Assembly: GCF_003334765.1 (NCBI RefSeq)
Contig: NZ_QOWT01000025.1
Direction: 5' to 3' (one strand)
From: Escherichia coli
Lineage (GTDB): Bacteria > Pseudomonadota > Gammaproteobacteria > Enterobacterales > Enterobacteriaceae
Length of the DNA stretch: 58,632 nucleotides
Part shown: positions 5,750 to 7,642 of the stretch, in pieces
How positions within the stretch are numbered: position 1 is the stretch's first letter
Layout of the letters: every line of letters begins with the position of its first letter
The notes under the pieces: model-generated
The model's input: the letters and a program-made list of their open reading frames with translations, nothing else
Databases searched by the model: none
What the model was told of the DNA's origin: nothing
Translations under genes and position numbers: made by a program

Positions 5750-7642
5750 TTACATCACCAGACGGCGAATGTCAGACAGCGTGTTGTTAATGATGGTAAT
5801 GAAACGGGCACCATCAGCACCGTCGATCACGCGGTGGTCGAAGGAGAGAGAAATCGGCAGCATCAGACGCGGCACGAACTCTTTACCATTCCACACCGGC
5901 TCCATCGCGGACTTGGAAACGCCGAGGATAGCCACTTCCGGCGCGTTCACAATCGGCGCGAAGTGGGTAGTACCCAGGCCGCCGATGCTGGAGATGGTGA
6001 AGCAACCGCCCTGCATTTCGCCCGCAGTCAGCTTACCGTCACGCGCTTTCTTAGAAATAGTCATCAGCTCGCGAGACAGCTCGATGATGCCTTTCTTGTT
6101 GACGTCTTTGAATACCGGAACAACCAGACCGTTCGGGGTATCCACCGCCACACCGATGTTGATGTATTTCTTCAGGGTCAGACGCTGACCGTCTTCCGAC
6201 AGCGAACTATTGAAGCGAGGCATCTGCTCAAGAGCTGCAGCAACGGCTTTCATGATGAAGACAACCGGGGTGATCTTCACATCCAGCTTACGTTTCGCCG
6301 CTTCTTCGTTCTGCTGTTTACGGAACGCTTCCAACTCGGTGATATCGGTTTTGTCGAAGTGAGTAACATGCGGGATCATTACCCAGTTACGGCTCAGGTT
6401 CGCACCAGAGATTTTCTGGATGCGGCCCAGTTCCACTTCTTCGATTTCACCAAACTTGCTGAAGTCCACCTTCGGCCACGGCAGCATGCCAGGGATACCA
6501 CCGCCAGTCGCTGCCGGAGCTGCTTCTGCACGTTTGATAGCTTCTTTCACGTAAGCCTGAACGTCTTCGCGCAGGATACGACCTTTACGGCCAGTGCCCT
6601 TCACTTTCGCAAGGTTAACACCAAACTCGCGTGCCAGACGGCGGATCAGCGGAGTCGCGTGAACATAAGCGTCGTTTTCAGCAAATTCAGATTTGCCTTC
6701 CGCTTTCGCAGCTGGTGCTGCTGCCGGGGCTTCAGCTTTTGCTGCCGGTGCCGGCGCTGCCGCTTCCTGTTTCGCAGGAGCTGCCGCAGGCGCTGCGCCT
6801 TCAACTTCGAAGATCATAATCAGCGAGCCAGTTTTCACTTTATCGCCAACGTTGACTTTCAGTTCCTTCACGACGCCTGCAAACGGCGCCGGAACTTCCA
6901 TAGAAGCTTTGTCGCCTTCTACGGTGATCAGTGACTGTTCAGCGGCAACTTTGTCGCCCACTTTCACCATCACTTCAGTCACTTCAACTTCGTCACCGCC
7001 GATATCCGGAACGTTAACTTCTTTCACGCCAGCCGCTGGTGCAGGGGCCGCTGCCGGAGCTGCTTCCTGTTTAGCGGCCGGAGCTGCCGCGCCTGCTTCA
7101 CCCGCGACTTCGAAGACCATAATCAGCGAGCCGGTAGACACTTTATCACCCACGTTCACTTTGATCTCTTTCACGGTGCCAGCAAACGGAGCCGGAACTT
7201 CCATAGAAGCCTTGTCGCCTTCTACGGTGATCAGCGACTGTTCAGCTTCAACTTTATCGCCAACTTTCACCAGGATTTCGGTCACTTCAACTTCGTCGCT
7301 GCCGATATCCGGAACGTTAACGTCTTTTGCCGCCGCAGCCGCTGGTGCTGCTGCCGGAGCTGCTTCTTTCTTCTCTTCTGCCTGAGCAGGTGCAGCGTCT
7401 GCTGCACCGTCGGCGGAATCGAAAATCATAATCAGTGCGCCGGTCTGGGTTTTATCGCCAACAGAGACTTTGATCTCTTTAACGATACCCGCCTGCGGAG
7501 ACGGAACTTCCATAGAGGCTTTGTCGCCTTCTACGGTGATCAGCGACTGTTCGGCTTCAACTTTGTCGCCCACTTTGACCAGGATCTCGGTGATTTCAAC
7601 TTCATCAGCCCCGATGTCCGGTACTTTGATTTCGATAGCCAT
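5750..7642 (-). CDS. aceF: Dihydrolipoamide acetyltransferase (pyruvate dehydrogenase E2), 630 aa, three tandem lipoyl domains
   Basis: ORF track 5750..7642 (630 aa, [47 protein letters not shown]... repeated three times, Ala/Pro linkers, C-terminal catalytic domain). Confidence 0.97.

What the first reader, a model, noticed from the sequence alone, without database searches (positions are those of the whole stretch)
6740..7640. Three tandem lipoyl-domain repeats of about 300 nt in aceF
The N-terminal third of aceF consists of three near-identical units (...[61 protein letters not shown]...) separated by Ala/Pro-rich linkers. The nucleotide identity is high enough that the antisense frames of the ORF track also repeat. 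This is a textbook recombination-prone tandem repeat, and the window shows the full three-domain form.
Basis: partly seen in the sequence, partly recalled or inferred. Interest (0 to 1): 0.2.

Follow-up and report, generated by a model that had tools for sequence, protein, structure and literature searches.

The report
Three lipoyl-domain repeats in E. coli aceF
This is the well-known triple lipoyl-domain repeat at the start of the E. coli pyruvate dehydrogenase E2 gene (aceF); it is ordinary, though public genomes show that rare natural strains have lost one repeat by recombination.

Summary
Window 5750-7642 (minus strand) is aceF, 630 aa. It is identical to the E. coli E2p chain in PDB 7b9k and matches the AceF equivalog model.

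Its first ~300 codons hold three Biotin_lipoyl domains with Ala/Pro-rich linkers, in tandem units of 309 and 303 nt.

Three details are overstated:
- The repeats span about 48% of the protein, not a third.
- The units are 72-83% identical in DNA (72-86% in protein), with dS 0.47-0.89 and exact shared runs of only 23-32 nt.
- So they are old, diverged copies rather than near-identical ones.

The "recombination-prone" claim holds only weakly. 5412 of 5424 complete E. coli genomes keep the intact three-domain stretch. Eleven carry in-frame deletions of four junction types:
- lip1×lip2 hybrid, 309 nt
- lip2×lip3 hybrid, 303 nt
- linker×linker, 306 nt
- a 192-nt microhomology deletion

Two-domain alleles also recur on hundreds of public contigs. 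Four-domain alleles appear only in draft or metagenome E. coli assemblies and two Salmonella genomes, and may be artefacts.

Verdict: already known; low interest.

The parts
5750..7642 (-). aceF CDS, 630 aa: dihydrolipoyllysine-residue acetyltransferase (E2p) of the pyruvate dehydrogenase complex
   Evidence: ORF; Pfam architecture; NCBIfam equivalog NF008814; PDB 7b9k full-length match; present in 5424/5426 complete E. coli genomes
6807..7621 (-). Tandem repeat array as called by TRF (period 303, 2.7 copies, 80% matches)
   Evidence: repeat family D1; offsets 303/309/612
7412..7639 (-). Lipoyl domain 1 (aa 2-77); lipoyl-lysine K41 codon at 7520-7522
   Evidence: Pfam Biotin_lipoyl aa 4-73, E=1.3e-21; GDKASMEVP motif position; coordinates
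7331..7411 (-). Linker 1 (aa 78-104), Ala/Pro/Glu-rich
   Evidence: translation
7103..7330 (-). Lipoyl domain 2 (aa 105-180); lipoyl-lysine K144 codon at 7211-7213
   Evidence: Pfam Biotin_lipoyl aa 107-176, E=5.4e-23
7028..7102 (-). Linker 2 (aa 181-205), Ala/Pro-rich
   Evidence: translation
6800..7027 (-). Lipoyl domain 3 (aa 206-281); lipoyl-lysine K245 codon at 6908-6910
   Evidence: Pfam Biotin_lipoyl aa 207-277, E=4e-22; matches PDB 1qjo, the innermost lipoyl domain
6665..6799 (-). Linker 3 (aa 282-326), Ala/Pro/Lys-rich; length-polymorphic between strains
   Evidence: 12-nt deletion in strain FAHZZU6724; P0019 carries a 7-aa insertion
6557..6664 (-). Peripheral-subunit-binding domain (E3_binding, aa 327-362)
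   Evidence: E=7.5e-16
5756..6448 (-). Catalytic acyltransferase/core domain (2-oxoacid_dh, aa 399-629), contains the DHRVIDG motif
   Evidence: E=3.4e-80; sequence; PDB 4n72
6693..7385 (+). Antisense 'shadow' ORF (230 aa) whose translation repeats because the sense DNA repeats; not a gene
   Evidence: no Rfam feature in aceF
7657..10320 (-). aceE (E1p), immediately upstream in the operon
   Evidence: annotation of the matching E. coli loci
4001..5425 (-). lpd (E3), downstream in the operon. The mechanical ORF runs to 5458; the start at 5425 (MSTEIK) is inferred from the 474-aa product and lpdA annotation at the matching E. coli loci, not annotated in the window itself

Best explanation
The region encodes the N-terminal swinging-arm module of E. 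coli AceF (E2p). It holds three ~76-residue lipoyl domains, each with a lipoyl-lysine in a DKA hairpin (K41, K144, K245), joined by flexible Ala/Pro-rich linkers. [quoted passage not shown] By established biochemistry, the lipoyl groups are reductively acetylated on E1p (AceE), deliver acetyl to CoA at the E2 active site, and are re-oxidised by E3 (Lpd). The DNA repeat reflects an old internal triplication kept under purifying selection. It predates the Escherichia/Salmonella split. The copies have diverged enough, mainly at synonymous sites, that unequal recombination is rare but not absent. A small minority of natural strains carry in-frame two-domain alleles with hybrid junctions.
For: Identity of the gene. 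Operon context pdhR-aceE-aceF-lpd. Repeat geometry. Divergence between copies: 72-83% DNA identity for whole units, 75-85% for domains, longest exact shared runs of 32, 26 and 23 nt. dN is 0.09-0.18, dS is 0.47-0.89 and dN/dS is about 0.2. Positional orthology with Salmonella: d1-d1 96%, d2-d2 93% and d3-d3 91%, against 74-86% between paralogous domains within E. coli. Stability: 5412 of 5424 complete E. coli genomes cover at least 80% of the lip1C-lip2-lip3N probe in one piece. Rare unequal recombination, found with a strict hybrid-junction probe that the normal allele cannot pass (569 bits maximum), gave 7 genomes: a 309-nt lip1N/lip2C deletion in 01_3327 and 03_3013; a 303-nt lip2N/lip3C deletion in C2, C4, VTB97379v and Rb-50; and a 306-nt linker1 x linker2 deletion in DSM 103263. 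All are intact ORFs of 527-529 aa. Four clonal genomes (439, 446, 447, 463) carry a 192-nt in-frame deletion at a GTGGG microhomology between the VNVGDKV and VKVGDKV motifs. The exact 529-aa protein is on 182 public contigs, in a cluster of 305 members whose listed members are 528-530 aa. The 527-aa protein is on 454 contigs. Literature: the aceF sequence (Stephens et al. 1983), engineered removal of lipoyl domains (Guest et al. 1985) and random-order acetylation of the tandem domains (Allen et al. 1989) are refs 14, 43 and 44 of PMC8421416. That paper describes the three domains as 73% identical and functionally redundant. By its title, Dave, Guest and Attwood 1995 found that fewer lipoyl domains lower growth rate and yield (cited in PMC10579247).
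Against: Nothing contradicts the identification. Lipoylation and catalysis are inferred from homology and from the identical solved protein; they are not tested here. The independence of the four lip2 x lip3 deletion alleles is unresolved. Their genes differ by 12-22 nt and they differ at polymorphic sites inside the crossover run. However, in many lineages lip2 and lip3 share about 53 identical nt there, so the crossover point cannot be narrowed. One of the 12 genomes that failed the probe was not characterised.
Confidence: 0.97

Rival explanations
1. The repeat is a genuinely unstable, contingency-like locus whose copy number switches often, so populations are mixtures of 2-, 3- and 4-domain aceF.
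For: Hybrid-junction deletion alleles exist in at least four junction types. Four-domain alleles with reciprocal-type hybrid domains appear in public data (P0001, P0003, P0011, P0014). Some lineages have a 53-nt identical run between lip2 and lip3.
Against: 99.8% of complete genomes keep three domains, and none of 5,426 has a four-domain or one-domain allele. The copies are 15-28% diverged with dS 0.47-0.89. Domain positions are orthologous between E. coli and Salmonella. Deletion alleles are inherited clonally: the gene is identical in 01_3327 and 03_3013, and four clonal genomes share the 192-nt deletion. That pattern does not fit a scattered switching state.
Confidence: 0.05
2. The three-copy structure in this window, or the variant alleles elsewhere, are assembly artefacts from repeat collapse or expansion.
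For: E. coli four-domain alleles occur only in draft or metagenome assemblies, on 1-5 contigs each, some at low coverage. Several ENA versions look like inter-species chimeras (P0002, P0015, P0025). A loop through the shared k-mer in a de Bruijn graph would give exactly these hybrid junctions; this is my inference.
Against: The window's three-copy form is identical in architecture to 5412 complete genomes and to the solved protein. Two-domain alleles are present in finished genomes under five accession series from different hosts and countries. They are also on hundreds of contigs. So for the deletions an artefact is very unlikely.
Confidence: 0.02
3. The repeating antisense ORF (6693-7385, + strand) is a real overlapping gene.
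For: It is an uninterrupted 230-codon frame.
Against: Equally long or longer antisense frames run through aceE (757 aa), the rest of aceF (409 aa) and lpd. This is the usual by-product of codon usage in these genes. Its repeats simply mirror the sense repeats. It starts with TTG, and Rfam reports nothing in aceF.
Confidence: 0.01

Closest known systems
E. coli K-12 AceF / E2p (UniProt P06959 from my own knowledge; PDB 7b9k, 1qjo, 4n72)
   Same: Full-length match to the 630-aa chain of 7b9k at 1323 bits. K-12-derived chromosomes are 99.9% identical in DNA. The domain order is the same: three lipoyl domains, PSBD, catalytic domain.
   Different: Nothing of substance. One or two synonymous-level DNA differences from K-12 strains; 100% identical to strain FORC 064.
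Two-domain AceF-type E2p, the commonest state among relatives
   Same: Same PSBD and catalytic core and the same kind of lipoyl domain and linker.
   Different: Among the 150 best 50%-identity representatives, 96 have two lipoyl domains, 44 have one, 8 have three and 1 has four (the count of 9 three-domain sequences includes the E. coli query itself). So the three-domain form here is a minority, lineage-specific state. Rare E. coli alleles such as WP_032220595.1 (529 aa) have reverted to two by unit deletion.
Engineered E. coli PDH complexes with altered lipoyl-domain number (Guest/Perham laboratories)
   Same: The natural 527-529-aa alleles have the same kind of in-register hybrid-domain architecture as the constructs implied by Guest et al. 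1985 (cited).
   Different: Those were made in vitro. The alleles found here arose naturally and persist in clones. By its title, Dave et al. 1995 found lower growth rate and yield with fewer domains (cited). So the persistence of natural two-domain clones is mildly unexpected.
Diverged tandem repeats subject to RecA-dependent unequal exchange or replication slippage (general class)
   Same: Head-to-tail direct repeats. Natural deletion junctions fall in the longest identical runs: around the lipoyl-lysine codons, a 13-nt linker run, or a 5-nt microhomology.
   Different: Divergence of 15-28% and exact runs of 23-32 nt put the window allele near the lower limit for efficient homologous exchange. 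That limit is from my own knowledge of minimal processing-segment and mismatch-repair work and was not tested here. This fits the 0.2% variant frequency.

Membership tests
AceF / E2p of the pyruvate dehydrogenase complex | Whole-protein match to the curated equivalog model above its cut-off | tested here: met
   NF008814 scores 1101.5 bits against a cut-off of 722; TIGR01348 scores 1041.6 against 552.1
AceF / E2p of the pyruvate dehydrogenase complex | Domain order: lipoyl domain(s), peripheral-subunit-binding domain, 2-oxoacid_dh catalytic domain with the DHRxxDG motif | tested here: met
   Pfam hits; [12 protein letters not shown] is visible in the translation
AceF / E2p of the pyruvate dehydrogenase complex | Operon context with E1p (aceE) upstream and E3 (lpd) downstream, and pdhR further upstream | tested here: met
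   ORFs at 7657-10320, 4001-5458 and 10481-11278, all on the minus strand; RefSeq annotation of the matching loci
AceF / E2p of the pyruvate dehydrogenase complex | Acetyltransferase activity and assembly into a 24-mer core | not testable with these tools
   Inferred from the full-length match to the 7b9k chain
Lipoyl domain (Pfam PF00364 Biotin_lipoyl) | Three separate significant matches, each covering the whole model | tested here: met
   aa 4-73, 107-176 and 207-277; E-values 1e-21 to 5e-23; model positions 1/2-72 of 73
Lipoyl domain (Pfam PF00364 Biotin_lipoyl) | Conserved modifiable lysine in the hairpin motif (E)GDKA | tested here: met
   [11 protein letters not shown] at K41, K144 and K245
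Lipoyl domain (Pfam PF00364 Biotin_lipoyl) | Actual lipoylation of the lysines | not testable with these tools
   Known for the identical E. coli protein from the literature cited; not tested here
Recombination-active tandem repeat | Head-to-tail direct repeats with exact runs long enough for homologous exchange | tested here: inconclusive
   Runs of 32, 26 and 23 nt in the window allele, and up to ~53 nt between lip2 and lip3 in other lineages. This is at or near the accepted minimum, which I recall from memory and did not test
Recombination-active tandem repeat | Natural alleles that differ by whole units and carry in-register hybrid junctions | tested here: met
   7 of 5,426 complete genomes, with three in-register junction types
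Recombination-active tandem repeat | Copy-number heterogeneity within the sequenced culture of this window's source | not testable with these tools
   No reads are available

The most novel reading that the evidence does not exclude
Lipoyl-domain number in AceF is a naturally polymorphic, heritable trait within E. coli. Two-domain alleles have arisen several times by unequal exchange: a lip1/lip2 hybrid, a lip2/lip3 hybrid and a linker/linker junction. They persist in successful clones, on 454 and 182 public contigs for the two commonest exact proteins. This holds even though laboratory work reported a growth cost for fewer domains. It implies that the cost is niche-dependent or compensated, and that the repeat offers a coarse tuning knob for PDH. 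Shared synonymous polymorphisms between lip2 and lip3 also hint at ongoing intragenic gene conversion.
Probability: 0.3. Interest if true: 0.3.

Novelty: already known. Interest (0 to 1): 0.1.

Why it matters
The feature itself is textbook: the aceF sequence was published in 1983, the domain engineering in 1985-1997, and structures exist up to 7b9k. Confirming it adds nothing new. The one modest addition is a population-scale figure for a claim usually made by assertion. About 0.2% of finished E. coli genomes have altered the repeat, with defined hybrid junctions, and none has gained a domain. It also matters for annotation. NCBI's annotation pipeline labels the intact 527-aa allele a pseudogene 'missing N-terminus'. 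Four-domain 'alleles' in draft and metagenome assemblies should be treated with caution.

Tried and rejected
1. I could not list rare variants by ranking ordinary BLAST hits. The tool joins nearby pieces, so normal and variant genomes tie. I replaced this with a concatenated set of six synthetic hybrid junctions and a strict E-value cut-off, after checking locally that the normal allele tops out at 569 bits.

2. I first inferred that all four lip2 x lip3 deletions crossed over in one 8-nt interval, suggesting a single origin. I withdrew this after seeing that the flanking 'diagnostic' sites are polymorphic and shared between lip2 and lip3 in other lineages. The origin, single or multiple, is left open.

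3. Four-domain E. coli alleles looked like strong evidence of duplication. None occurs among 5,426 complete genomes, and several ENA versions are evident chimeras. I therefore treat them as unproven.

4. Literature searches for natural aceF lipoyl-domain deletions or tandem-repeat recombination found nothing relevant. The one hit, the mecillinam resistome of Klebsiella, concerns loss-of-function aceF mutations.

5. I dismissed the antisense ORF as a gene; see the rival explanations.

6. One of the 12 genomes that fail the probe was not identified.

Full report
**What is at the coordinates.** The window carries a 1,893-nt ORF on the minus strand at 5750-7642, encoding 630 aa. Pfam finds three Biotin_lipoyl domains (aa 4-73, 107-176, 207-277; E-values 1e-21 to 5e-23). 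These are followed by an E3_binding domain (aa 327-362) and a 2-oxoacid_dh catalytic domain (aa 399-629, E=3e-80). The protein passes the curated AceF equivalog model NF008814 at 1101.5 bits against a cut-off of 722. It matches the 630-aa E. coli E2p chain of PDB 7b9k over its full length, and lip3 matches the NMR structure 1qjo. The DNA is 100% identical to the E. coli FORC 064 chromosome and 99.9% identical to K-12 derivatives. 5424 of 5426 complete E. coli genomes hold the gene. aceE lies upstream at 7657-10320, lpd downstream at 4001-5425, and pdhR further upstream, all on the minus strand.

**Is the repeat real and beyond chance?** Yes.
- Tandem Repeats Finder gives one array at 6807-7621 with period 303, 2.7 copies, 80% matches and score 917.
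- The gap-free repeat finder gives three 300-nt copies spaced 303 and 309 nt apart.
- In a self-comparison, offsets 303, 309 and 612 give 173, 161 and 158 matches per 200 nt. No other offset exceeds 94.
- Unrelated in-frame 228-nt pieces of the same gene average 27% identity, with a maximum of 41% over 11,026 pairs. The lipoyl-domain pairs are 75-85% identical.
Comparably long antisense frames also run through aceE, the rest of aceF and lpd, so it is a by-product rather than a gene.

**Corrections to the description.**
- The three domains plus linkers occupy about residues 1-305 of 630, roughly 48% and not a third.
- Whole units are 72-83% identical in DNA and 72-86% in protein.
- lip2 and lip3 are the closest pair (85% DNA identity over the domain), and lip1 is the outlier.
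- Between the copies, dN is 0.09-0.18 and dS is 0.47-0.89, giving dN/dS of about 0.2. These are old copies under purifying selection.
- The longest exact shared runs are 32 nt (lip1/lip2), 26 nt (lip1/lip3) and 23 nt (lip2/lip3). All lie around the lipoyl-lysine codons, in the [11 protein letters not shown] stretch.

**Age of the triplication.** Each E. coli domain is closer to the Salmonella domain at the same position than to its own paralogues: 96%, 93% and 91% against 74-86%. The three-copy state therefore predates that split and has not been homogenised since. In a more distant three-domain relative (P0154, 54% identical overall), domains are more alike within the protein (57-64%) than across species (45-56%). 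This is the familiar sign of concerted evolution or independent duplication over longer spans. Among the 150 best 50%-identity representatives, 44 have one lipoyl domain, 96 have two, 8 have three and 1 has four (the script's count of 9 three-domain sequences includes the E. coli query). Three domains is thus a minority state.

**Testing 'recombination-prone' against real populations.** I used a 516-nt probe spanning lip1C, linker1, lip2, linker2 and lip3N. It is covered at 80% or more in one place in 5412 of 5424 complete E. coli genomes, leaving 12 that are not.

To find whole-unit changes I built six synthetic hybrid junctions: three deletion types and three duplication types. I checked locally that the normal allele cannot exceed 569 bits against them. 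I then searched with a cut-off of about 627 bits or more. Seven genomes matched.
- **lip1N/lip2C hybrid, 309-nt deletion:** strains 01_3327 and 03_3013, whose genes are identical to each other. The ORF is intact at 527 aa. RefSeq nevertheless labels it a pseudogene 'missing N-terminus'.
- **lip2N/lip3C hybrid, 303-nt deletion:** strains C2, C4, VTB97379v and Rb-50, from cow, cow, chicken and human. The product is 529 aa, and three of them share WP_032220595.1. Their genes differ by 12-22 nt.
- **Linker × linker, 306-nt deletion:** strain DSM 103263 lacks lip2 entirely. The junction lies in a 13-nt run, GCACCAGCGGCTG, shared by linkers 1 and 2.

No genome has a one-domain or a four-domain allele.

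Four clonal genomes from one Taiwanese series (439, 446, 447, 463) carry a different change. It is a 192-nt in-frame deletion joining VNVGDKV of lip2 to VKVGDKV of lip3 at a 5-nt GTGGG microhomology. It exploits the internal half-domain similarity of the lipoyl fold. That accounts for 11 of the 12 genomes; one remains uncharacterised.

Short in-frame indels in the linkers also occur, of -12, +9 and -3 nt.

**Wider public data.**
- The exact 529-aa protein occurs on 182 contigs, in a cluster of 305 members whose listed members are 528-530 aa.
- The 527-aa protein occurs on 454 contigs and is indexed in 592 blocks of the collection.
- The 566-aa protein occurs on 6 contigs.

The two-domain alleles are therefore real, heritable and clonally successful, though rare.

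**Four-domain alleles.** The best-scoring database proteins are 723-738-aa versions with an extra hybrid domain. P0001 has a lip2N/lip1C hybrid. P0003, P0011, P0012 and P0014 have a lip3N/lip2C hybrid. P0003 is encoded on at least five contigs, whose DNA differs by 20-30 nt between contigs. The crossover lies in the 20-nt run just after the lysine codon. Two Salmonella finished genomes (P0034, and P0037 = CP006575) and a Citrobacter draft also show four domains.

I treat these as unproven for three reasons:
- No finished E. coli genome has one.
- Several ENA versions are evident inter-species chimeras.
- A loop through the shared k-mer in a de Bruijn graph would generate exactly these junctions (my inference).

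**Crossover sites.** I first placed all four lip2 x lip3 deletions in one 8-nt interval. The flanking sites, however, are polymorphic in E. coli and the same variants appear in both lip2 and lip3 in different lineages (GAC/GAT, AAG/AAA, GCT/GCG, GCT/GCA, GGC/GGT). In some lineages lip2 and lip3 share about 53 identical nt there. This suggests occasional gene conversion between the copies. It also means that other alleles are better recombination substrates than the window's, and it leaves single versus multiple origin of the deletions open.

**Mechanism and comparison with the literature.** The function follows from established knowledge of the identical protein. Lipoyl-lysines on mobile domains shuttle acetyl groups and electrons between the E1p, E2p and E3 active sites, and the Ala/Pro linkers give reach.
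- The three domains are described as 73% identical and able to act redundantly (PMC8421416).
- E2 chains are said to carry one to three lipoyl domains (PMC6270654; PMC10849603).
- The gene sequence (Stephens et al. 1983), genetic removal of domains (Guest et al. 1985) and random-order acetylation (Allen et al. 1989) are listed as refs 14, 43 and 44 of PMC8421416.
- By its title, Dave, Guest and Attwood 1995 found that lowering lipoyl-domain content reduced growth rate and yield (cited in PMC10579247).

Searches for reports of natural aceF domain-number variants found none in the held library.

**Verdict.** The feature is already known and of low interest. The only modest addition is the measured rarity (about 0.2%) and the defined junctions of natural two-domain alleles, plus a caution about four-domain assemblies and a pseudogene mis-call.

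Noticed in passing
L003 1901-3484 and L004 1901-3484 (E. coli 01_3327 and 03_3013): RefSeq/PGAP annotates the 527-aa two-domain aceF as a pseudogene ('incomplete; missing N-terminus'). The ORF is in fact intact from the normal ATG, and the same protein is on 454 public contigs. This looks like an annotation artefact caused by the length difference.
   Followed up: partly
window 6908-6975 and 7211-7278 (lip3 and lip2 around the lipoyl-lysine), compared with L001, L002 and L005-L012: The same synonymous variants (GAC/GAT, AAG/AAA, GCT/GCG, GCT/GCA, GGC/GGT) segregate at homologous sites of both lip2 and lip3 across E. coli lineages. This hints at intragenic gene conversion. 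Some lineages have a ~53-nt identical run there, against 23 nt in this window.
   Followed up: partly
L002 2321-4021 (E. coli strain 463 and three clonal genomes): A 192-nt in-frame deletion fuses the C-terminal half of lip2 to the N-terminal half of lip3 at a GTGGG microhomology between the two VGDKV motifs. The resulting '1.5-domain' module has two lipoyl-lysine hairpins. Whether it folds is unknown.
   Followed up: partly
L013 1501-3678 (Salmonella Pullorum S06004, CP006575) and P0034, P0036: Finished Salmonella genomes and a Citrobacter draft encode four-lipoyl-domain AceF proteins with mosaic lip2/lip3 hybrids. It is not resolved whether these are real or assembly errors.
   Followed up: partly
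window 6665-6799 (linker 3) and 7331-7411 (linker 1): The Ala/Pro linkers are length-polymorphic between strains through short GCN/CCN repeats. Examples: -12 nt (AAPA) in FAHZZU6724, -1 aa in P0118, +7 aa (AKAEAPA) in P0019, and +9 and -12 nt in other genomes.
   Followed up: partly
window 7798-10071 (+), 5705-6934 (+), 3974-4831 (+), 4841-5344 (+): Very long antisense 'shadow' ORFs (757, 409, 285 and 167 aa) run through aceE, aceF and lpd. They are most likely a codon-usage by-product, not genes.
   Followed up: no
window 10323-10436 (+): Rfam match to the sRNA family tp2 (103 bits) in the pdhR-aceE intergenic region, on the strand opposite to the operon.
   Followed up: no
window 21711-21788 and 21828-21904 (-); 22308-22377 (-); 28024-28113 (-): Two adjacent naRNA4 matches (nucleoid-associated noncoding RNA 4, CssrE), an STnc40 match and a PssrA-family match above Rfam gathering scores.
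   Followed up: no
window 49616-49765 (+), 55745-55971 (-), 57728-57827 (+): Leucine operon leader, SgrS sRNA and a TPP riboswitch. By gene order recalled from memory, this places the window at roughly 75-133 kb of the E. coli K-12 map, in reverse orientation.
   Followed up: no
H40, NZ_CP107281.1 (E. coli JCL301, laboratory strain): Among the 5,425 complete genomes with any aceF match, this is the only one where the match covers less than 80% of the gene. It retains just the last 96 nt next to ampE, consistent with an engineered deletion.
   Followed up: no
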